DNA from: Callorhinchus milii
Taxonomy: Eukaryota
Length of the DNA stretch: 64,000 nt
Direction of reading: 5' to 3'
Assembly (NCBI RefSeq): GCF_018977255.1
Contig: NW_024704742.1
Location: forward strand, 118,172,001-118,236,000
The stretch's first letter is position 1, and each line of letters begins with the position of its first letter. This document shows positions 1-54,302 of the stretch, piece after piece. The notes below the pieces were generated by a model. It searched no databases. It was not told the DNA's origin and saw nothing but the letters and a program-made list of their open reading frames with translations. A program made the translations under genes and the position numbers.

Positions 1-527
1 TATTGATTATGTTGCTGAAATAAAAGGCTGAATCCAAAGTGTAAGATTTCAGTTATAGACATGTGGGATATGCTCAGAATCAATATGGTACTCATCTTCC
101 AGTATATTTGAAAGAAGCCATTTCTCTCTCGTAATTATCTTAACAGAACCTAAAAATCTAGTTGCTAGTATTGACTGGACAATATGTAACAATATGTAAC
201 TAACCCAATAGATCTAAAAACAGATTATTCTATGCAGCAGATGGCCTCAATCAAGGCATCTTAATTTACAAGTCGCCCGCGGAGAATTGCCCCTGATGAA
301 CTCTGAAGATCCCCTCTTTGTCAGATGGTGTCAACCCATCATTGGGCAGCTTCTGTCAGAAGCACTGAAACAGAGGTATCTCCAAATTAGTTTACATAAC
401 CCGGTTATTTAGGCACAATTTGTCATAAAAAGTCATATAAATTAGGATTCCTCTTTGTGCCATCAGCACACTTATTTAAGTTGCACTTATTTAAAATGAA
501 TAGTAATAATCATGTTAATTTTTTTAC

Positions 528-14286: not shown

Positions 14287-14592
14287 TAATAATAATAATC
14301 CTTGCATTTGATATAGCACTTTTCACGTCGGGAGGACGTCCCAAAGCACTTCACAGAACACACTGTAAAGTGAATTGACTGTATATTTGTGGGCGAACGC
14401 GGCAGCCAATTGCGACAGCAATGTCGCACAATCAGTCGTAGATTGAAAATGACCCATTTATTATTGTTTTTTTTTGGAGGGATTATTATTAGGTGTGTGG
14501 AGTAAGGAAACTTGCCCAAGGTTTTGCCCTGCCTGGAATTGAACTCAGGTCTTTCGCTTGCAAAGCGAGTGCTCTAACCACTGAGCTACAGG
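14287..14592 (-). mobile_element. tRNA-Ala-derived SINE (CmiSINE-like)
   Basis: Head cctgtagctcagtggttagagcactcgctttgcaagcgaaagacctgagttcaattcc (A and B boxes), family body, LINE-like stem-loop and (TTA)n tail. Confidence 0.9.
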
Positions 14593-15912
14593 ACTCCAAG
14601 TAGTGGACTTATAAAGCTGATGAAGCATGAAGAATGTGCAGATAAAAATTAAACGTCTCCGCAATCACGCTTCTAACCAGCTCAGCTCTAATTTCAAGGC
14701 AACGTCCCATTGTTATGGATTCGTTCACCAAAAAGATGGTGCACATCACCATGTCAATTTCCTTTACTATTTTAAACACATCAATCAGAACAAGAGAGAA
14801 ACAGGCAGAGGGAGAGAAACAGAAAGACAGAGGCAGAGGGAATCCTAGCCAACAATCCCCCATTAAAACTGATCATTCATGGTTGCTTGTGGGTGCGCAA
14901 ATTAGCTGCAGTGGTTGCCCAAAACAGCTTATTCCGCTTTATAGTAGATCCTGTGAAGTGTTTTGAGGCTTCCTTCAGAATACCAAACGAAAGTATTATT
15001 TATTATTACATATAGGGCACAGAAAGTGAATGCTATACTTCCTAAGCACAATGCAAGTGAAGAAGCATCCAGGATGCAGCATCACTCCTCTCCTAAAAAA
15101 AACACCCTCAATCCCTGCAAACTCTCCAATCTCTGGCCCATCTCCAACCTGCCTTCCTACCTCAAGACCTAGAAAGCAATATTTCTCCCTGGCCTCTCTA
15201 TCAAACTCACCAAATTAGTGCGCAAATCCGGATCATGCTCCACCACTCTCAAGTGTTCTAGTACTCTACCCTGCTTGAGGGGTGCTATATAGATGCAAGT
15301 TGTTGTTATTGCTGCTGGTGTTCGGTTAGATTCTCAGTTTTCCTTCCTTCCATTCGGCCAAGATTGTTTTTTTCCCCCAATTTCACTACTTTGCCTGGCT
15401 CTAGCCCCATCTCACATCAAATCTACCAAACCTTTCCTTCACTTCTTTGTTAAGGCCCAACCTTCTCAAATTAACTCTCCTAGTTCCACCATTCATAGCT
15501 ACACCTCACTTGCACCAAACCCAACAAGCCCATCTCCCTGGCCCTTTCTTTTTAAAAGGAGTCAAGTGTGAAGAATCCCTACCCCCAATTGGCCACTCCA
15601 AGCCGTGCCAATAAGCCAAGTTGGCTGGTCTGTTATCAGCCGTATCTATGGATTCACCAGGCTTAAGAATCAGGATAGTCACTAGTTGCAAAGTAAGTCA
15701 TCCTGTGAGGTGAGATCATAATTTCAAATGATGAATTGATTTTATTTTAAAATCAACTTGTGCTATCTACGAAGATGCCACCTGCCTGATCTTTTACTGA
15801 ATTAGTGACTCAAATATGAACTTACACTGTCCGTGCTTTAACCAGAAGGTATATTGTAGCAACCAGTGGATTTGGTTCAGTAAAGATGAAGAGCCACGTC
15901 ATGTGATTTTGT

Positions 15913-16460
15913 AGAATAATAATCCTTGCATTTGATATAGCGCTTTATCACGACTTTGAGACGTCTCAAAGTGCTTCACATAATATATTGTAAAGCGACT
16001 AAAGGGAACTGACCCTCTGGAACTCCATCTCGCAGTCCCTCCACCTCACCCCCTCCCTTGCCACCTTCAAGACCCTCCTCTTCGACCGTGCTTTCGATCC
16101 CCCTGCTTCGCCTCTGCCCTCCGCCCTTCCCGACCCCGACCCCCTGTTCAGGTCCGAAACTCTATCTGTCCAGCGCCTTGCGACGTCCTCCTGACACGAA
16201 CGACGCTCTACAGATGTAATTTTGTTGTTGTTGTATATTTTCTGGGCGAAACCTAGCAGCCAATTGGGATTGTGAGACCAATTTTTTTTAAAGGGATTAT
16301 TACCCCCAGAAAAGTAATCTGCCAATAGACTAACAACCGGGTTGCTGTTTACTGCTCGGTAAACAGAGGCGTGTGGAGTAAGCAAACTTGCCTAAGGTTT
16401 TGCCCTGTCCGGGAATCGAGCCCAAGTCCTCTCGCTTGCGAGCGGAGCGCTCCAACCAAT
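15913..16460 (-). mobile_element. SINE split by an opposite-strand L2 3' fragment (about 16005-16233)
   Basis: SINE tail 15913-15995 and body/head 16234-16460 flank a plus-strand L2 end with (TTG)n. Confidence 0.85.
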
Positions 16461-16649
16461 ATATAATAATGATAATCCTTGCAGTTGATACAGCACCAAT
16501 ATGCTACAGGACTCCTTGCAACTATGCAGAGCCCAACACAAACACACTGAAAGCTTTGCCCAACTCTTTCACGGAACCTGTTCCCCATTCGCCTGCAGCA
16601 GGGCAGCGACAGCGGCCAAAACCAAAACAAGACACAGAACAAAGTTCTT

Positions 16650-17330
16650 TGAAGTCGCGCCCGAAAACCACCGCCGGCCGACCCGACGTGTCCGTGTCAC
16701 TTACTTCTTGAAATCTGAGCTGAAGAGGCCAATCCCGGGAGCACCAACTCCCGAAGTCACCGCAGTTGCATCTTGGCCCAATTCGGTGGTCTCCCCTCCC
16801 AGGCCCCGGTCTCCTTGGTCGTTGTAAGACACGTTGTTACTCGCCATGATTGCCTGAAGCTGACTTCCTGGGGATCTGTCGGTCGGTCGGTCGGTGGGTG
16901 ACAAGGCCGCGGCTGATTTGGTTGCGAGTCGCTTTTTTTGTTTTCGGAGACTTTTCTTTCAGCCCGAAAGTGACTCTCAGACACACACACACACACACAC
17001 GCACCACCGCCCGCCCGCGGCTACCGGAAGTGTGACAGGGAGTCACCTGACTCGGGATCACATGACGCTGCGGCTGCCAAGGCGACCACGGCGGGTGACG
17101 CCACGTGCCAATCGCAGCTCGGCTTCCCGTGGGACTCGCGCACGCGCAGGAAAAGATTCCCACCCCCTCCCCCTCCCCCCCCCCACCTCACCACCACCTC
17201 ACCGATTGGGCGGAGAACACGTCACCAGGTGGCCACGTGGCGGGAAGCCCTACCCGGGAGACCTGGGGCGGGAGCGGAGGCCATTGGTGCGCTGCAGTGT
17301 CAGCCCCGGCTCCGTGGGCAGTGCTCTCGG
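16650..17330 (-). promoter_or_regulatory. AP3B1 CpG-island promoter
   Basis: CpG-rich block around exon 1. ETS CCGGAAGT 17024-17031, GTCACCTGAC 17042-17051, TCACATGA 17058-17065, CACGTG 17102-17107 and 17234-17239, several CCAAT/ATTGG boxes, GC box near 17265, (CA)n 16981-17001. Confidence 0.85.
16705..16847 (-). CDS. AP3B1: AP-3 complex subunit beta-1, coding exon 1
   Basis: MASNNVSYNDQGDRGLGGETTELGQDATAVTSGVGAPGIGLFSSDFK+AA|gtaagt resembles human MSSNSFPYNEQSGGGEATELGQEATSTISPSGAFGLFSSDLKK. Lies in a CpG island; strong GTAAGT donor, phase 2. Confidence 0.95.
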
Positions 17331-17504
17331 CTCTCAGTTAGAAGGCTGCGGTTCTGTGAAGCGCTTTGGGACGTCCGCCCGACGTGAAAAGCGCTATATC
17401 AAATGCGAGGATTATTATTATTATTATCATCATCATCGTGGGTTCAACCCCACGTCATCAGGACTTTGAGCTCACAGCGACGTTAGACGCACTCAACAAG
17501 AATC

Positions 17505-18950
17505 TACCGATCAGAATTGAACAAACAGCAAGAAGAGGACGCGAGTGAAAAGAGAGATATGCAGGTGTGCGTGAATAGTATGCAAATGTGCATAACTAAA
17601 TTGAGTTCGCTGGTAGATAACCAACAAGGTATGGTTAACTTAGCAGCTGCGGATAGGGTAAGCAACGTGAAACAGAAACAGTTGGTGAAAAGCTGACAGA
17701 GGAAAACGTCCAACTGAGGAGGCAGCTGGAGGACGCGAGGAGAGCATTGCGTGAGGCTGTAAGAAGGAGTCAGGAACATGATGGAATAAACCATGAGCTG
17801 TGTCAGTGGCAAATCAGTCTACTGAAGCAACAGTTAGGAAGGAGTAAAGCAATAGCAGAAGCTGTCACCTATGGGACAGTAGGAAAGTCTGATATGCATA
17901 ACGATGATGATATGGACTGGGGGTGTTTGGATGAAAAGGGAGCCCAATATCACTATGATAGATTCCTGAGCGGTGCAAAGGGATTGGTAGAGGTGGTTTA
18001 TCAAACTATACGTACTAATCCTCAGGGAGGGGTAACTGCTAGTTATGAGGCAAATCGCCCGCTTACTCACCCTGAGTGTGAGGCTCTAGCCCAGGAGCTG
18101 GGAATCATTGAAGGGAGGTGTCCCCTCGAGCTCAGTACTACTTGGAACATTTTTGTACAAAGCCATCCTGAGTTGAGTGATCAGGATACAGAAAGTGGTT
18201 TTGATGGCAACAGTATTAAACGTTAAGGGACAATTGGGAGCGTCGATATTTGGTGCAACTACGATAGCACAGGGAACGGTTGATGCCATTAAAGCGATAC
18301 TCGGGGTAGTAAGTATTGATGTACATGCTCAAATTGGGAAGTGTGAGCAGGGGAAGACAGAAAATCCAGAGATTTTCGAACAGAGGTTACATAGTTTATC
18401 TGAGCTTTCTCAGGCCATTGCTCCTGTCACGACCGTATTCCGGAACATTGCCAATTACAAAAACCTTTTTCTAAGGAAATTACAACCCCGAGTTAAGACA
18501 GCTTTAGCAGTAGCGGTGAATGGAGACACTCCATGGGGGGAAATAATGGATAAATTCATGCGGACATGGAGACAGTCTCAGCTCGCGCAGGCTGATCCCG
18601 TACTGAACAAGGTAAAGAAAGAAGTCTGTGAGGTTGACGGACCCTTCCCAAATCAGTGGAATATTAGGGGAAGAGGCCGACCTTACAGAGGATGAGGAGG
18701 AAGGGGTAGTAATTGGAGTAATGCCTCTAGCGAATGCTATAAATGTGGGGGTAGAGGGCACTTTGCTTGTGATTGTCCCAGCGAGCCACAGCCGGGGTCT
18801 AACCAAATTTAAAATTTCCCCTATATCACCTGTAAACTTTCGCCCACTGACCAAAGATTGGATAAATTGATTGCATTATTAACCCTCCAGCCGGTGACTG
18901 GAGGCAGTCCTCAAATCAGTAAAACCTCCAGTTCCTTATCCTTAAAAGCT
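17505..18950 (+). pseudogene. Decayed endogenous retrovirus / LTR-element gag (coiled-coil N-terminus, capsid MHR, CCHC nucleocapsid knuckle)
   Basis: Frameshifted ORFs 17747-18226 and 18177-18695 contain KCEQGKTENPEIFEQRL (major homology region pattern Q-x-x-x-E-x-x-x-x-F-x-x-R-L). An RG-rich segment with an in-frame TGA at 18693 is followed, in the same frame, by CYKCGGRGHFACDC (CX2CX4HX4C) at 18735-18776. Confidence 0.85.
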
Positions 18951-24650: not shown

Positions 24651-25369
24651 GCGATATATAAATAGATCGATATATAAATAGGAGTCATTTTTCAAGATAT
24701 CCTGGAAAAGACAGGTAAATGGGCTTGAAAGGATTGTTTTTTCAAAGAGTCAACACAGACACGATGGGCCGAATGGCCTTCTTCTCTGCTGTAAATTTCT
24801 ACAGTTCTCTGGCTTAACAAACTAAGATCACAAGATTGGTTTGGATGAAGAAGGCACATTTTACCTTATCCTTCCTGAATATGAATCCTACCATCTTCCC
24901 ATCACAGTTTCAACCTGTTTGGTAAATGAATCCACTGTCCTGGCCTCAAACTCTCTGCCTGACAATCTGTTACAATCATTAATTATCCTCTGGTTAAAAA
25001 AAAACTTCCTGGTGTCTGTCCTGAAATTGCCCTTTGCAACTCTAAACCTATGTCCCCAAAATATATAGTCACTACACTTTACAGTATATTCTGTGAAGGG
25101 CTTTGGGATGTCTTGAAGACCCGATAAGGCGCAATATCAAACGCAAGGATTATTATTATTTATTATCATTATGTCTTGTTCCACTCACTTGGTACAGCTA
25201 AAGTGTTGGTCTGGGTTTACTTTTTCAATCCCATTTAAAATTTTATACACCTCCTTAAGGTCCCCTCTGGGATGTGTTCTCTTTGAGAACTGAAGAGCCC
25301 GTAGCTTGTCTAATCATTGCTCACAGCTCATTCCACTCACACTGGAGATCATCCTCGTTGCTGTACTTG

Positions 25370-25790
25370 TATGATCTGAACCAGTCAAGGACAGAGCCAT
25401 GAAGGTTGAGGTGAGAGAAGAGACAGTGGATGAGGATAGAGTGGTCGATGGTATTGAAAGCAGCAGAGCGGTCAAGGAGGACAAAGAGGCAAAAGGAGCC
25501 CTGGTCGCAGATGGATAGAATGTCATTTGTCACTTTGACCAGGGCTGTTTCTGTGCTGTGGGCGGCACGGAAACCCGAATGGAGGGGTTCAAGAAGGGAG
25601 TGGCGGGAGAGGAAGAGTGAAGCTGAGAAGCAACAACTCGTTCCAGGACCTTGGAGAGGAAAGGGAGGCTGCAGATGGGTCGGTAGTTTGGGAATAGAGA
25701 AGGGTCCAGGGAGTGTTTTTTAAGGATAGGAGTCATGATGGTTTTTAATGTTGTGGGAACAGTACCGGAGGACAGGGAGAGGTTTATGAT
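25370..25790 (-). mobile_element. L2 RT N-terminal fragment
   Basis: TPILKKHSLDPSLFPNYRPICSLPFLSKVLERVVASQL, LLDRSAAFNTIDH. Confidence 0.88.
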
Positions 25791-25875
25791 GTCCCAAATA
25801 AAAGGTAAAGTAATGCAGATGCTGGAAATATGGTATAAACACAGAAGTCGCTGGGGACACGCAGCAGGTCAGGTG

Positions 25876-25912
25876 AGTTAACGTTTCAGGTCTATGGCCT
25901 TTCATCAGAACT
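25876..25912 (-). ncRNA. Minimal type I hammerhead ribozyme motif (Penelope-associated type)
   Basis: Minus strand: AGUU-CUGAUGA-A-AGGCC-AUA-GACCU-GAAA-CGU-U-AACU. Stem I AGUU/AACU, intact CUGAUGA and GAAA cores, stem II with one mismatch, loopless palindromic stem III (ACGU), GUU cleavage triplet. Confidence 0.7.
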
Positions 25913-26257
25913 GGGGGATGTTGGAAGGGAGCAGATTATAAGGAGAAGCAGAGAAGGGGGCGGGGAAAGAAAGACAAAGGAAACATTTTTAGATGGAGAT
26001 GAGATTAGAGGATGATAATGCAAGACAAAAGTCAATAGGATTATAAAATGAACGCATCTTCGAATATAAAATAGATGCATCTGTTAGTTTTATAATCCTC
26101 CTACTGCCCCTTTTGCCTTGCACCATCAACATCTCTAATCTCATTATTTTCTATTCTCCATCTAAAAAGTCTCCTTTTTCTTTTCCCGCCCCCTTCTCTG
26201 CTTTCTCTTTATAATCTGCTCCCTTCCAACGTCCCCTAGTTCTGACAAAAGGTCATA

Positions 26258-26640
26258 CCCTCGTAAGCGAGAGACCTGAGTTTGATTCCCAGCATGGCAA
26301 AACCTTGGGCAAGTTTCCTTACTCCGCAAGCCTGATAATGTGGAGTTCTGTAGCTCAGTGGTTAGAGCACTCGCCTCGCAAGCAAGAGACCTGGGTTAGA
26401 TTCCTGGCAGGGTGAAACCTTGGGCAACTTTCCTTACTCCACACACCTGATAATCCTTCAAGAAAAAAAAGAATAGTAATGTGGTCACACAATCCATGAC
26501 TATTTGTGGGACACTGTTGTGTGCAATTGGCTGCCACATTTCACCCACAAATATACAGTCAATTCACTTTATATTCTGTGAAGTGCTTTGAGACATCTTG
26601 AAGATGTGAAAAGCGCTATATCAAATGCAAGAATTATTGT
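26258..26640 (+). mobile_element. tRNA-Ala-derived SINE preceded by a partial second head
   Basis: Partial head 26258-26340, full head from 26345 (tagctcagtggttagagcactcgcctcgcaagc), body and tail to 26640. Confidence 0.9.
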
Positions 26641-28593
26641 TATAGATCTGAAATGTTAATTCATTTTCCTCTTTCCATGGATGCTGCCTGACCTGCTGCG
26701 TGTCCCCAGCGATTTCTGTGTTTAATCTCCTAAATAAATTGGTCATTCACTTCATAATAATAAGAATAATCCTTGCATTTGATATAGCTCTTTTCACGTC
26801 TTCTAGACGACTCAAAGAGCGCACAGAATAACTTCATGGCCATTTATGAGACATTGCTGGGTGCAAATTGTTTGCTATGTTTGCTCACAAGATACAGTAT
26901 ACCAATTAATTGTTTTGAGATATCCTTCTGATGTGAAAGGCCCCATATCAAATGTAAGATTTGTGTTATTTACTATTATAATAATGTATTTCTGCATAAT
27001 TAAATTGATTCATCCAGACAAAGAAGTGCAAAAAGGCTCTGATATCCCCCCACCCCCCATTCCATCGCTCAAAAGCACAATTCCCATTTCTATTCTCCAG
27101 AGTAGAATCGACCAACAACTATCCTCCTGGGAGGCTAAGGAGGTCTTCGTGGAGCTGAGCAGACTCCCAAGGTGATGTGCTTGGCAGGGGAATGTTGGAA
27201 TTGACTCAATCCTCTGTAGCAGTCTCAGTTGTCCAGTTACTGAGACAGTCGGATCCACAGTACTCCAAAGCACTGCCGATGACAGCCCAGCCAGCCTGGC
27301 TCATCAGCAGGACCAGGAAAGGCAGACTAGAAGCAGAGATTATTCCAACTCAACTCCCGTTAATCCTGCAACTCTAAGTCCTTCAAATATGTGACTTCAC
27401 CAACAACAATCAGATGTGAAAGGCAATATCCCAAATATAAGAATTATTATTAATTTTATTGATTCAGATTGGCGCTCAGAGTCAAATCTCTCCCTTTATA
27501 ATGTACCCTATAGCGTCTGGTCAATGTGAAAATTAATCAAATAGAGCTAAACATGAGGTCTAAATGGAGACCATTAGTTTTATTTTTCAATTCAATTTAT
27601 TTCAACAATTCATAGTGTATGGTTTACATCTCCTGTAAAATTTATGAATAGGAAGTGTTTTCTCTGAACGTTAAATCGCTGTTTCACATTACATTCATTT
27701 GACTTTAGCCATTATCCTTCAAAAGGCACAGTCGAAGTACTTGCACACTCAGCAGTTTTTTTTATATATATGCAGGAAACAAATGACTTGAAGCACATTG
27801 AAAGCAAAAATAAGAAAGATGCAATTTGTGAGACATTACTTATATCTTCCCTAAGTCTTTAGCTCCACTGAGAACACAAGTAGAATATAAATCTATGCTT
27901 AAAGATAAAGACTAGAAAAAGGCTTCCAAATGTTCATTAAAAAAAATGTCAGTTGAGCTGATAATGCTCTTTCAATTAACTCATTAAAAAAGGATACATA
28001 TCTACTTTAGAGTTGTGTGGGAAAATGAATGAACAAAATGCTGCTTGTTGCAAAAACTTTGTGGGTAAATGCCCACTATAATAATAATAATCCTTGCATT
28101 TGATGTAGCACCTTATCATGTCTTCGAGACGTCTCAAAGCACTTCACAGAATATACTATAAAGTGGATTGACTATTTTGTGGGCAAATCACTCATGTAAC
28201 CATCTCAGAAATAGAGTACAACTTTGAATATCTACGAAAGGCGCTATCAAAAATGTAATTTTGTTGTTATTGTATTAATATTTTAATGATTTCAGTTACT
28301 TCATATTTGCATAACATGTACATATTGGATTTTTAAACTTAAATTTGAAGCTGCAATATCACATTTTGGTGTGTCAGCCTTGCTCATTTGGTAGCACTCC
28401 TGCTTTGAGTCAGAAGGTTGTGTGTTCGAGCCCCATTCCATCGCTCAAAATATTCTAACACAATTCGCATTGTCATTATCGTGCATAGTACCAACCAGTG
28501 ACTATTGTCTTGGGGGGGATAAGGGGCCCCTGGAGCTGAGCTGGCTCAAATGCAAGGATTATTATTAGTTGTTTCCAATACTAACATCACATT

Positions 28594-28932
28594 ACTTGCC
28601 TCGCGAGGTCCTAGGTTTGAATCCCGGCAGGGTGAAACATTGGGCAAGTTTCCTTACTCAACATGCCTCTGTTCACACTAGCAGCGAGTAGGAACCTGGG
28701 TGTTAGATGGTTGGTGGATCAGTTTTTCTGGGGATGATAATCCTTGCCAAAAAAAAATTTGGTCTCTCAATCCACGACTGTTTGTGGGACGCTGCTGTGC
28801 ACAATTGGCTGCCGTGTTTCACCCACAAAATATACAGTCAATTCACTTTACAGCATATTCTGTGTAGCACTTTGAGACGTCTCAAAGACGTGATAAGGCG
28901 CAATATTATATGCAAGGATTATGATTATTATT
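28594..28932 (+). mobile_element. tRNA-Ala-derived SINE
   Basis: Same head remnant, body (ttgggcaagtttccttactc, gtgcacaattggctgcc) and tail. Confidence 0.88.
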
Positions 28933-29196
28933 ACATAACTGGGTACACAACAGTCTGTTTCCAATGTGGGAGAATGCATTAAGGGTGGGAGGAACAATTC
29001 CCTGAGCAATTGTTTCATACTCACTATATACATTGCAGGAAACGAGTTCTTCAAAAGAGAGGATGGCATTTAAGAACATTTGATGGAAAGTAGTTGTTAT
29101 TGTGGGATTTGAGTGGCCCAACAGAGGGAGCCAATGTGTAGCTTAAAACCAAAGCAAGACAACCGATGATGATGATGAAGAGCCGGCACAGACATG

Positions 29197-29455
29197 ATAA
29201 TAATAATAATAATAATCCTTGCATTTGATATAGCGCTTTTCACGTCGGGAGGACGTCCCAAAGCGCTTCACAGAACACACAGTAAAGTGAATTGACAGTA
29301 TATTTGTGGTCGAACGCGGCAGCCAATTGCACACAGCAATGTCTCACAAACAGTCCTAGTTTGAAAAATGACCAATTTATTATTGTTTTTGGTTTTGGAG
29401 GGATTATTATTAGGCTGTGTGTGGAGTAAGGAAACTTGCCCAGGGTTTGGCCCTG
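29197..29455 (-). mobile_element. SINE (5' truncated) upstream of SCAMP1 promoter
   Basis: (TAA)n, intact stem-loop, family body. Confidence 0.88.
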
Positions 29456-29619
29456 ACCTGCCCTGACCCAATGGGCTCCTTCTGTGCGGCATCATTCCAC
29501 GGCTTTGTAAGGGTCGGAGCCGGTGACACAATAGCTCGAGCGCTGCCACAACCTTTCCTTGTGTCTCTGAAGCCCGTTTGAAAACTTAAGAGCGATTCTG
29601 AGCCGAACTGCTCGTGTCG

Positions 29620-30250
29620 CAATTCAAACAACAGCGGCAGAAAAGCCGAACGCGAACCGAACGGCGTAACCGGACAGTTTGACTGTCAAACAGCTAACGG
29701 CCGCCCCCGCCTGGCGACGAGCAGCTCGAGCGTCACCTGACACCCCGCTCGCTCGAGCTTCACCCCACGTGACCGGCAGGGGGGCTCGCTCGCGGGGCTG
29801 ACGTACGGCTGGTCGCGTGACCCACGCGGCGTCACTTCCGGAGCGGCCATCTTCTTGTTGTCGGATGTGAACCGAGTGGTGGTTTAAAGGGGGGGCGGCG
29901 GCGGCGGCGCTCACAGACAAGAGAAAGGCGTCGGTAATCAGCGGAGATCGGCTGTTGTGTGACAGACGCAGAGACAGGTGCTCAGGATCATCCACTATGT
30001 CGGACTTTGACAGCAACCCCTTCGCTGACCCCGAGTTCAATAATCCCTTCAAGGTAAAGCGAAGCCGACAAGCATCTGTTTTGTGTGTTGAGGTGAGGCC
30101 GAGGCTCCAGGGCCCTCCTCCCCGTCACTGGACAGACCCTGAGCCCCGGCCCCGGGCCCTCCGCGTCCCTGGCAGCAGGTGACAGGAGCCGCCCAGCTCG
30201 TCCCAAACCCGCTGCCGAGCTGAGCTGCATCACCCGCAGCGAAAACATTC
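29620..30250 (+). promoter_or_regulatory. SCAMP1 CpG-island promoter / 5' UTR
   Basis: CpG-rich. GC box CCGCCCC at 29701, GTCACCTGAC 29732-29741, CACGTGAC 29766-29773, GTCACTTCCGG (ETS) 29831-29841, YY1-type CGGCCATCTT 29844-29853, all upstream of ATG 29997. Confidence 0.85.
29997..30053 (+). CDS. SCAMP1: Secretory carrier-associated membrane protein 1, exon 1
   Basis: MSDFDSNPFADPEFNNPFK|gtaaag; two NPF motifs, nearly identical to the human SCAMP1 N-terminus. Confidence 0.97.
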
Positions 30251-31659
30251 CCGACCAGGATTTATTGGAAGTTTTGGTTTCTGTGTTCCGCTGTGTCCTG
30301 TCTGTACAGAGGCCCCGACTTCCACCACCTTCCGCTTGTCTCCTCTTTTCCCCTTTCCCTCCGATCCCTGATTTTTCTCTCTCTCTTCTGACTCGACCCC
30401 CTCCCATCTTTCTTGCCCCTGATCCCTCCCACCTCGCTCTCTTTTGCCTCTGTTCCCTCCTCCTCCCCCTGGCCCCTCCCACTCCCTCTTTTTTTGCCTC
30501 TGATATCTCTCTTCCTGCTGTTTTCTCCCTCTGATCATTTACAACAACAACAACAAAATTACGTTTGTATAGCGCCTTTCACGTCGGGAGGACATCCCAG
30601 GCGCTGGTTTACACCCTTCATCTCTTTCATGTCCCAATCCCCCACATATTTTGTGCCCCTAATATCTTCATCCTGATTTTTTTCGCTGATTGTACCCTTC
30701 ATCTTTCTTTCCCTGATCTCACATTTTCTTGCCCCTGATATCTTTATCCTTTTTTCACTCTCTGATCATACCGTTCATCTCTTGCTTCCCCGTCTCTTTG
30801 TTGCACCTGATCCCGTGTCTCTCTTGCCCCAATCCTGCCCTCTTCCCCCCTCCCCCCCCAACAAAAACTTTTCCTGTGGGCCCTGCTTGTTTTCTCCTTC
30901 TAGCTCATAGAAGCTCCTCTCACCATCTACTACTTTGCTCACCTTTTTGCCCCTTTTTGTTTGTGGAAATGAGTTTATGTAATATCTTTAGCAACAGATT
31001 AAAGTGCAAATGCTATTTTGAATGATTTGGTCACAGCGAGGCTTTAAAATAGATCTTTAGGGCATGGTGTTTTAAAACAGCAACTAAGGCATCATTGAAG
31101 TGTAACTTCAATGTTATAGTCTAAGGTTGTAACTGGTAAGGGTTAAGTAAAAATAAAAGCCAAGGACTTTAAAATGTCTATATGGAGGTGAGTTGGGGAG
31201 AGAGAGATCAGTGGCAAAGATTATTTTTGGATAATTATTCTGAAATGGTGCTTAATTTTCTCATACTTTAGAGGCTGCTACTAAAGTGGATCTTTAGCAT
31301 TGTTTGGAAGTGTGTAACACTTTTCATTCTGTATTGAAATGAATTCAACTTATGATGCATTTCCTAGAAATAAATTGGCTTCTGAAATAATTTTGATTCA
31401 AGACGAGATTAAGCAATAACTGGGAATCAATGGGATGTGTTAGGACAGTTGTTCTTCAGATGTTCTTGTCATTTGTAATTTCATTCAAGATTTGCATACT
31501 CATTCCATACATAAAGAAGGAAATAGAAGGATAAGGAGGAGGGTAGGCGTATGTGGGGGATGTCTGAAACCTGGAAATGCATTGATCTTTCGATGTACAA
31601 AGAATGTACAGCATGGAAACCAGTCACTCAATGTTGGTGTTTATACTTCACATGAGTCT

Positions 31660-53928: not shown

Positions 53929-54302
53929 GGGGCCTGTAACTCAGTGTATAGAGCACTCTCCTCACAAGCAAGAGACCTGGGTTCAATTCCCAGCAGGGTG
54001 AAATGTTGGGCAAGTTTCCTTACTCCACACCCCTCTGTTTACCGAGCAGTAAGTAGGATCCTGACTGTTTGTTGATTGGCAGATCTCTTTTCTGGGAGTA
54101 ATGATTCCTTCAAAAAGAATAAGAATAATAAATTGATCACTTCAATCCACGAATGTTTGTGGGACACTGCTGTGCGCAATTGGCTGCTGCATTTCACTGA
54201 CAAAATATACAGTCAATTCACTTTACAGCATATTCTGTGAAGTGCTTTGAGACCTCTCAACAACATGATAAGGCGCTACAATCAAATGCAAGGATTATTA
54301 TA
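53929..54302 (+). mobile_element. Full-length tRNA-Ala-derived SINE in SCAMP1 intron 7
   Basis: gggcctgtaactcagtgtatagagcactc head with B box ggttcaattcc, full body, tail. Confidence 0.9.

What the first reader, a model, noticed from the sequence alone, without database searches (positions are those of the whole stretch)
25876..25912. Minimal hammerhead ribozyme motif between AP3B1 and SCAMP1
Seen: the minus strand reads AGUU CUGAUGA A AGGCC AUA GACCU GAAA CGU U AACU. All core hammerhead nucleotides are present, with a 4-bp stem I, a 5-bp stem II (one C.A mismatch), one extra A after A9, and a loopless self-complementary stem III (ACGU) ahead of a GUU cleavage site. Known: Penelope-like retroelements carry minimal type I hammerheads whose palindromic stem III lets two copies cleave as a dimer, and an extra nucleotide after A9 is tolerated in a viroid hammerhead. 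Inference: this is a catalytic RNA motif spread by a non-coding mobile element, which ORF-based annotation would not show.
Basis: partly seen in the sequence, partly recalled or inferred. Interest (0 to 1): 0.78.

Follow-up and report, generated by a model that had tools for sequence, protein, structure and literature searches.

The report
Worn Penelope retrotransposon hammerhead ribozyme
The motif is real, but it is a mutated and likely inactive copy of the small self-cutting RNA that Penelope-type jumping genes are already known to carry, one of over a thousand in this genome; the only extra lead is that most short copies begin at its first letters, which likely marks where the element's RNA starts.

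Summary
The 37-nt minimal type I hammerhead is there as described (1 of 400 window shuffles gives such a hit). It lies in the end repeat (pLTR) of a protein-coding Penelope-like element (RT plus C-terminal GIY-YIG, Neptune/Nematis-type linker). The genome holds 1,346 core matches and 5,614 tail matches. The locus is one old insertion: two head-to-head pLTR pieces within a 14-bp target duplication, between the divergent AP3B1 and SCAMP genes. The C·A mismatch is decay (family base U) and removes about 5 kcal/mol from stem II. The partner copy is inverted, has G8→A and is split by a SINE, so no cis dimer can form. Such ribozymes are published (PMC4209133). Two subfamilies differ by one compensatory pair (A-U/G-C); inserted copies show no clear extra conservation. 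Side lead: 56 of 94 unbiased copies start within −11..+5 of C3 and only 1 near the cut site, behind a TATA-like box and initiator, so the ribozyme likely opens the element's RNA. The scan noted this family and this pile-up before on other DNA. Cleavage is untested.

The parts
25876..25912 (-). Minimal type I hammerhead motif, subfamily A (A10.1-U11.1). Stem I 25912-25909/25879-25876; CUGAUGA 25908-25902; extra A 25901; stem II 25900-25896/25892-25888 with a sporadic U-to-C change at 25897; GAAA 25887-25884; ACGU palindrome 25884-25881; predicted cut 25880/25879
25800..26052 (-). Copy 1: 5'-truncated Penelope pLTR piece, -165 to about +130 from C3, with the 30-40 nt tail. 240 of 257 aligned bases match the subfamily A majority sequence; 23-nt deletion between 25874 and 25873
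25935..25942 (-). TATA-like box (CTTATAAT), 30-23 nt upstream of the first base of stem I; an AT-rich box sits at the same place in both subfamilies
   Evidence: promoter role inferred
25910..25915 (-). Initiator-like CCCAGT with the A at 25912 = first base of stem I; likely transcription start of the family
   Evidence: sequence; consensus recalled; 5'-end pile-up
25956..25965 (+). GC box (GGGGGCGGGG), about 45-55 nt upstream of the presumed start
   Evidence: sequence; Sp1-type consensus recalled
26072..26257 (+). Copy 2, 5' part: inverted (head-to-head) pLTR piece, -177 to +16; hammerhead 5' half with G8 changed to A at 26247; 163 of 185 bases match
26258..26641 (+). tRNA-derived SINE (with a partial 5' duplicate at 26259-26339) inserted into loop II of copy 2; tRNA-like part 26344-26415
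26642..26724 (+). Copy 2, 3' part: rest of the hammerhead (palindrome broken, C15.2 to U) to +96, without the tail; 79 of 86 bases match
25789..25802 (+). Left target-site duplication (12 of 14 identical to the right one)
   Evidence: 23 of 3000 random pairs score as well
26725..26738 (+). Right target-site duplication
25324..25719 (-). Decayed LINE reverse transcriptase fragment beside the left end of the insertion (context, not part of the element)
   Evidence: RVT_1, E 1.9e-5, below the curated cut-off

Best explanation
This 37-nt motif is a mutated, likely inactive copy of the minimal hammerhead in the end repeat (pLTR) of an old Penelope-like retrotransposon, left here by one head-to-head insertion. 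In the active ancestor, transcription likely began at the first base of stem I, behind a TATA-like box in the upstream pLTR. The element's RT likely primed at two internal sites about 100 and 134 nt downstream of C3. Priming on the 5' repeat would run off the RNA end and give the many 100-140 bp stubs; priming on the 3' repeat would give longer truncated copies such as the two arms here. The ribozyme itself would cut after GUU only as a dimer or with protein help, and most templates that were copied had not been cut. Shown here: the family link, locus anatomy, end distributions and decay. Inferred: the transcription start, priming sites and run-off. Taken from papers: dimer or protein-assisted cleavage.
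For: Family link: the window piece matches copies that sit directly behind a GIY-YIG ORF (L002) and behind RT-GIY-YIG ORFs (L098 470 aa, L100 334 aa). A DKG-type motif was found in 14 of 30 N-terminal loci; linker plus endonuclease in one frame in 8 of 30 loci. One of 30 N-terminal loci (L213) has the tail running on into the ORF start region. Abundance: 5,614 exact tail 19-mers and 1,346 core matches, reversed controls 0. Locus anatomy fits published PLE insertions: inverted 5'-truncated copy, tail on one arm only, TSD (PMC8557442 and PMC3846280 passages). Decay: stem II is -0.1 kcal/mol against -5.2 for the subfamily majority, and the hammerhead-type dimer is +0.5 against -9.7. The mismatch occurs in 17 copies and a compensated form in 1. 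Only 2 of 37 unbiased whole-motif copies are fully intact. Ends: 3' ends are bimodal (+94..106 and +124..136); 56 of 94 5' ends lie at -11..+5 and 1 of 94 at +26..32. Ends per base at risk are 0.077 at -6..+5, 0.0016 at the cut site and 0.0036 at -31..-100. No short copy has family sequence upstream in direct orientation (0 of 79). The anole Poseidon uses uncut RNA and two internal priming sites, and its ribozyme needs protein (PMC11167929).
Against: No cleavage or transcription-start data exist for this family. All catalytic core bases of this copy are intact, and the mismatch is in the outer part of stem II, so slow cleavage in trans with another copy cannot be excluded. Non-CpG core positions are slightly better kept than the flank (15/456 against 83/1465, p=0.05; 13/392 against 77/1436, p=0.11), which could be weak selection or alignment bias. 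The covariation is a single event between two subfamilies (44 of 500 shuffles reach it in an 8-row alignment). The 5' ends spread over about 15 nt with a shoulder to +25, wider than one start site. No intact full-length ORF was found among the 150 candidates scored in each of two searches, so the full unit was pieced together from fragments. The end sample comes from the first 14 Mb of one contig and favours less decayed copies.
Confidence: 0.85

Rival explanations
1. The motif is an active ribozyme of a non-coding, retrozyme-like element that spreads through cleaved or circular RNA.
For: Most copies are ORF-less stubs of 100-140 bp (79 of 94 start at or after -11). 7 of 38 solo stubs have their own TSD, against 28 of 1406 cross-locus controls. 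A preprint links animal retrozymes to PLE pLTRs (10.64898/2026.07.22.740005).
Against: Stubs do not start or end at the cut site (1 of 94 near it). Among the 100 places listed, I count 7 head-to-head pairs and 0 same-strand pairs within 2 kb, so there are no tandem arrays there. Both coding subfamilies show the same pile-up (23 of 34 A, 33 of 60 B), which argues against one SINE-like master.
Confidence: 0.07
2. The 5' pile-up does not mark a transcription start. It marks a 3' splice site (pyrimidine tract + CAG) or an RT stall at the folded or dimerised ribozyme.
For: The upstream sequence is pyrimidine-rich and ends in CAG at the stem I edge. In D. virilis the intron end maps to the 5' end of helix I (PMC4209133). 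The ends have a shoulder inside stem II (16 of 94 at +6..25).
Against: There is no upstream exon: 0 of 79 short copies have direct-orientation family sequence upstream, and the 38 solo copies share no common upstream piece (5 pairwise matches). RT meets the 3' side of the structure first, yet ends are rare there. The TATA-like box at -30/-29 predicts the same base independently.
Confidence: 0.25
3. The insertion has been co-opted by the host, for example as a bidirectional promoter or an RNA-cutting element between the divergent AP3B1 and SCAMP genes.
For: It lies 4.1 kb upstream of the SCAMP start and 9 kb upstream of the AP3B1 start. Both arms keep the TATA-like and initiator-like sequence, pointing outwards.
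Against: Both arms have decayed 7-12% like other copies, one is split by a SINE, and the family has about one exact tail match per 180 kb, so a copy near a gene is expected. It lies outside both CpG islands (16-18 kb and 29-30 kb).
Confidence: 0.04
4. The motif is a chance match.
For: The bare core pattern is at chance level, and the 37-mer does not fold better than shuffles (z 0.05).
Against: The full descriptor is met by 1 of 400 shuffles, there are 1,346 family matches against 0 controls, and the position in the pLTR is where PLE hammerheads are published to lie.
Confidence: 0.01

Closest known systems
Minimal hammerheads (min-HHR) in pLTRs of metazoan Penelope-like elements, including fish Xena, Poseidon and Neptune (Cervera and De la Pena 2014, PMC4209133; parts 1-2 of 4 read)
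   Same: Type I topology, short helix I, extra base between 9 and 10.1, palindromic 15.2-16.2 with no loop 3, thousands of mostly single copies, some pairs on opposite strands 100-700 bp apart.
   Different: Helix II is 5 bp, against 7-8 in the Schistosoma families. Subfamily A has A10.1-U11.1 where the paper calls G10.1-C11.1 highly conserved (subfamily B has G-C). This copy is decayed. Cartilaginous fish are not named in the parts I read; the figures and supplements were not seen.
Neptune/Nematis-type EN+ PLEs (Craig et al. 2021, PMC8557442; passages read)
   Same: C-terminal GIY-YIG, CX2-5CxxC linker between RT and endonuclease, DKG motif, 5' truncation, inverted 5' copy, 30-40 bp tail at one end.
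   Different: Neptune and Nematis were not told apart (no reference sequences, no tree). No intact full-length copy was found.
Anolis Poseidon PAc (Frangieh et al. 2024, PMC11167929; parts 1-3 of 4 read; supplementary figures gave no usable text)
   Same: Hammerhead just ahead of or over the ORF start, two 3' end classes defining a tail, and uncut RNA as the template.
   Different: PAc is in the Penelope/Poseidon clade, described as lacking the linker, and its ORF starts inside the ribozyme. The text does not report a pile-up of 5' ends at stem I; Fig. S2 could not be seen.
Adineta vaga Pen2a pLTR (Arkhipova et al. 2013, PMC3846280; passages) and D. virilis Penelope promoter (Schostak et al. 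2008, PMC2377424; passages)
   Same: Promoter inside the pLTR; TATA plus Inr-like sequence, inverted pLTR, 9-10 bp TSD and tail in Pen2a.
   Different: The passages read do not tie the start site to a ribozyme. D. virilis is TATA-less, with a 75-bp intron between the start and the ribozyme.
Non-LTR retrozymes of animals (bioRxiv 10.64898/2026.07.22.740005; part 1 of 5 and passages)
   Same: Type I hammerhead, PLE pLTR origin, non-coding copies.
   Different: Retrozymes are defined as tandem repeats with a hammerhead in each unit. This locus and the sampled copies are single or head-to-head.

Membership tests
Minimal type I hammerhead (min-HHR) | Core C3 U4 G5 A6 N7 G8 A9, G12 A13 A14, A15.1-U16.1, H17 | tested here: met
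Minimal type I hammerhead (min-HHR) | Helices I and II paired | tested here: inconclusive
   Met in both subfamily majorities (9 of 9 pairs); this copy has 8 of 9, and stem II falls to -0.1 kcal/mol
Minimal type I hammerhead (min-HHR) | Extra base between 9 and 10.1; palindromic 15.2-16.2 | tested here: met
   A at 25901, ACGU; extra A in 66 of 67 sampled copies that cover it
Minimal type I hammerhead (min-HHR) | G10.1-C11.1 pair (typical, not universal) | tested here: not met
   A-U here and in 280 of 1,346 genome matches; A·C in 31; G-C in subfamily B
Minimal type I hammerhead (min-HHR) | Covariation in stems | tested here: inconclusive
   One two-sided change (10.1-11.1) and one U-A/U-G change (2.1-1.1) between subfamilies; A-U 14, A·C 1, G-U 25, G-C 53 in a hand count of the 100 listed (7 others); 44 of 500 shuffles reach the score
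Minimal type I hammerhead (min-HHR) | Self-cleavage as a dimer or with protein help | not testable with these tools
   needs a bench assay
EN+ Penelope-like element | Single ORF with PLE-type RT and C-terminal GIY-YIG, upstream of the pLTR | tested here: met
   L098, L100, L107; DKG-type motif in 14 of 30 loci (motif from PMC8557442). Pfam GIY-YIG hits are weak (E 0.009-0.13, below cut-off), Pfam gave no RT hit, and PDB gave no hit; RT motifs were read by eye
EN+ Penelope-like element | pLTR with hammerhead; inverted 5'-truncated copy; optional 30-40 bp tail; TSD | tested here: met
EN+ Penelope-like element | Full pLTR-ORF-pLTR tandem unit | tested here: inconclusive
   Only L213 (1 of 30) joins the tail to the ORF start region; no intact unit found
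Neptune/Nematis group | CX2-5CxxC linker between RT and endonuclease | tested here: met
   8 of 30 loci matched the linker-plus-endonuclease pattern in one frame (in one of them the first Cys is lost); the other 22 did not match and were not examined
Neptune/Nematis group | RT phylogeny with reference clades | not tested
   no reference sequences fetched; atlas unavailable
Non-LTR retrozyme | Tandem repeats with a hammerhead in consecutive units | tested here: not met
   Window pair is inverted; 0 same-strand pairs within 2 kb among the 100 places listed

The most novel reading that the evidence does not exclude
In this PLE family the hammerhead is the very first structure of the mRNA: a TATA/initiator promoter in the upstream pLTR starts transcription at the first base of stem I. 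The thousands of 100-140 bp stubs are then run-off, strong-stop-like cDNAs from uncut RNA, and cutting after GUU would remove the capped first 33 nt. The ribozyme would be a decapping off-switch for translation or copying, not the tool that makes unit-length templates.
Probability: 0.5. Interest if true: 0.55.

Novelty: new member of a known kind. Interest (0 to 1): 0.25.

Why it matters
The site itself matters little: it is debris of a known ribozyme-bearing retrotransposon. The family matters somewhat, because the job of PLE hammerheads is stated to be unclear (PMC8557442, PMC11167929). Thousands of insertion ends give a fossil map of the RNA's 5' end and of the priming sites, and they say that cut RNA was rarely copied. 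That turns an open question into a simple test (CAGE or 5' RACE, plus cap-dependent reporters with core mutants). The A-U/G-C subfamily pair is also a natural test of the 10.1-11.1 rule.

Tried and rejected
Rfam: no hammerhead family match at E<=10. Free folding does not give the hammerhead for the 37-mer or its extensions, and cofold minima for the window and both majorities are other folds, so the energies quoted are for imposed structures. Closely spaced same-strand core pairs fetched as candidate full-length elements (L061, L062, L065/L066) were a 4.7-kb local duplication, two separate stubs, and two near-identical loci. The 913-aa frame at C4:58.47 Mb was an endonuclease fragment fused in frame to a LINE. 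L102-L106 share their flanks and are duplicates of one insertion, not a young subfamily. No shared sequence downstream of the tail was found among 128 copies apart from host repeats and duplicates (output partly cut). Expression: no RNA holder listed. All runs were contigs, which cannot show ends. Contigs of four runs guessed to be RNA carried family-like pieces, and no listed piece was locus-specific; this says nothing for or against expression. Contigs of four other runs covered the inverted junction 25969-26313 but did not settle whether the stem II change is fixed. The sigma-70 scan is not relevant to a vertebrate. The first core-versus-flank comparison was inflated by subfamily-diagnostic sites and was redone. 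Lunse et al. 2017 is not held; only its title was seen. The protein atlas gave no answer. Homologue and structure searches were not run.

Full report
Observation. The bare core pattern occurs 6 times in the window against 6.3 by chance. A full minimal-hammerhead descriptor hits only this site, and 1 of 400 dinucleotide shuffles gave any hit. Rfam has no hammerhead match here. The site is intergenic between divergent genes: AP3B1 starts at 16847 (-) and a SCAMP gene at 29997 (+), with checks against PDB and Pfam. The genome is 0.99 Gb. From recalled repeat types it is likely a cartilaginous fish; this was not tested.

The locus. The motif sits in copy 1 of a repeat (about 25800-26052, minus strand), which matches the subfamily majority at 240 of 257 bases and has a 23-nt deletion just 3' of the motif (the majority was built from 28 copies, most of them found with the window sequence). 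Head-to-head with it lies copy 2 (26072-26257 and 26642-26724, plus strand). Its hammerhead has G8 changed to A and a broken palindrome, and a tRNA-derived SINE has inserted into loop II. Copy 1 carries the 30-40 nt tail and copy 2 stops at +96. A 14-bp direct repeat with 2 mismatches flanks the whole (25789-25802 and 26725-26738; 23 of 3000 random pairs score as well). This is one insertion with the layout described for Penelope-like elements (PLEs): an inverted 5'-truncated copy, a tail at one end and a target duplication (PMC8557442, PMC3846280, passages).

The family. An exact 19-mer of the tail occurs 5,614 times and the core with a 13-nt stem II region 1,346 times; reversed controls give 0. 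Longer copies carry a GIY-YIG ORF ending about 255-325 nt upstream of the motif, and some carry RT and endonuclease in one frame (470 aa in L098). A DKG-type motif appears in 14 of 30 N-terminal loci, and the CX2-5CxxC linker pattern in 8 of 30 endonuclease loci. That points to the Neptune/Nematis type, not Penelope/Poseidon (PMC8557442). Pfam support is weak, PDB gave nothing and no tree was built. No intact ORF was seen among the candidates scored. One of 30 N-terminal loci, L213, joins the tail directly to the ORF start region.

Is the structure selected? Two subfamilies differ at pair 10.1-11.1 (A-U against G-C) and at 2.1-1.1 (U-A against U-G). Genome-wide, A10.1 goes with U in 280 matches and with C in 31. 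A hand count of the 100 matches listed gives G-C 53, G-U 25 (CpG decay), A-U 14, A·C 1 and 7 others. This is one evolutionary event, and 44 of 500 shuffles reach the score in an 8-row alignment. Among copies chosen by the tail alone, non-CpG core positions differ from the majority at 3.3%, stems at 6.9% and the flank at 5.4-5.7% (core against flank p 0.05-0.11 with wider end margins, 0.016 with the narrowest). Only 2 of 37 whole-motif copies are fully intact. Inserted copies therefore mostly decay neutrally, and the motif was kept in the source elements.

Is this copy active? Probably not. The family base at 10.4 is U. The C here occurs unpaired in 17 copies and compensated in 1. It raises stem II from -5.2 to -0.1 kcal/mol and the imposed hammerhead dimer from -9.7 to +0.5. 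The only neighbouring copy is on the other strand and is broken, so no cis dimer can form. A minus-strand read-through RNA is predicted to fold into a -224 kcal/mol hairpin that pairs the core's 5' half. Published metazoan minimal hammerheads show no monomer activity and low dimer activity (PMC4209133), and the anole ribozyme cuts only with protein (PMC11167929). Against this, all core bases here are intact and no assay was possible.

Where copies begin and end. I took 90 loci around the first 100 listed tail matches (first 14 Mb of contig C1); these gave 94 distinct arms in 87 loci. The 3' ends fall in two groups, +94..106 and +124..136 from C3, like the two priming sites and tail of the anole element. 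The 5' ends pile up at the ribozyme's first bases: 56 of 94 at -11..+5, 16 at +6..25, 1 at +26..32 (the cut site is +28/29), 6 at +33..49 and 15 further upstream. Both subfamilies show it (23 of 34, 33 of 60), as does one arm per locus (51 of 87). Ends per base at risk are 0.077 at -6..+5, against 0.0016 at the cut site and 0.0036 at -31..-100. Of 79 short copies, 37 have an inverted partner directly upstream and none has family sequence in direct orientation. Of 38 solo copies, 7 have a TSD (control 28 of 1406), and they share no common upstream piece. Long copies carry an AT-rich box 30-23 nt upstream of the A of stem I: CTTATAAT in 14 of 28 subfamily A copies, and CTTAAAAA or CTTAAAAG in 11 of 26 subfamily B copies, with near variants in most others. 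CCCAGT at that A fits the initiator consensus (recalled).

Mechanism. The simplest reading is that the RNA starts at stem I, RT primes internally about 100 or 134 nt downstream, and priming on the 5' repeat runs off the RNA end to give stubs. Priming on the 3' repeat gives longer truncated arms such as the two here. Cut RNA was rarely copied, in line with PMC11167929. The start site, priming and run-off are inferred. A splice acceptor or RT stall at the same place remains the main rival (about 0.25).

Novelty. Minimal hammerheads in PLE pLTRs, including in fish, are published, so this is a new member of a known kind and a worn one. A promoter in the pLTR is also published (PMC2377424, PMC3846280, passages). 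I did not find the link between the start site and the ribozyme's first base in the papers returned by searches, of which I read only those named. Lunse et al. 2017 was not held, and Fig. S2 of PMC11167929 is a picture I could not see. Earlier notes of this scan report the same family and the same pile-up on other DNA. They are not independent support, and my own note of it came before I saw them.

Verdict. Observation confirmed, interpretation partly supported, interest 0.25.

Noticed in passing
G000 C1, loci L109-L198: 5' ends of family copies pile up at the first bases of the hammerhead, not at the cut site; 37 of 79 short copies are head-to-head fold-backs.
   Followed up: yes
L174 (G000:C1:10362873-10364873): A solo stub with an 8-bp TSD has one extra G just before the A of stem I, as copying of a cap would give. 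It is a single case; L167 and L194 have 14 and 7 extra bases.
   Followed up: partly
L213:2300-2800 (-): The tail runs on into the ORF N-terminal region. An ATG about 50 nt after C3 opens a stop-free stretch through the tail, so the ORF may start there; the tail also holds a pyrimidine tract plus AG that looks like a splice acceptor.
   Followed up: partly
L009:1479-2175 (-): A subfamily B-like stub is joined in direct orientation to a subfamily A 3' region, with an endonuclease fragment before it; likely a template jump between subfamilies.
   Followed up: no
window 26258-26641 and many others (e.g. 14287-14598, 28610-28925, 53934-54301): A very abundant tRNA-derived SINE family; the copy here has a partial 5' duplication, and inverted fragments follow at 26748-26830.
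   Followed up: no
L097:585-3062 (-): A PLE endonuclease and 3' end lie in one open frame with a LINE endonuclease-RT ORF (826 aa stop to stop in the fetched stretch); probably chance read-through of two adjacent insertions.
   Followed up: no
L102-L106 (small contigs C1257, C730, C1147, C57, C58): One PLE insertion is duplicated with its flanks on several small contigs; L106 also holds a 314-aa frame that looks like a seven-transmembrane receptor.
   Followed up: no
L061, L037/L038, L065/L066: Near-identical local duplications (4.7 kb, 67 kb and 22.5 kb apart); segmental duplications or assembly artefacts.
   Followed up: no
window 16000-18000 and 29000-30600: AP3B1 and SCAMP have separate CpG islands about 13 kb apart, with repeats between them.
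   Followed up: no
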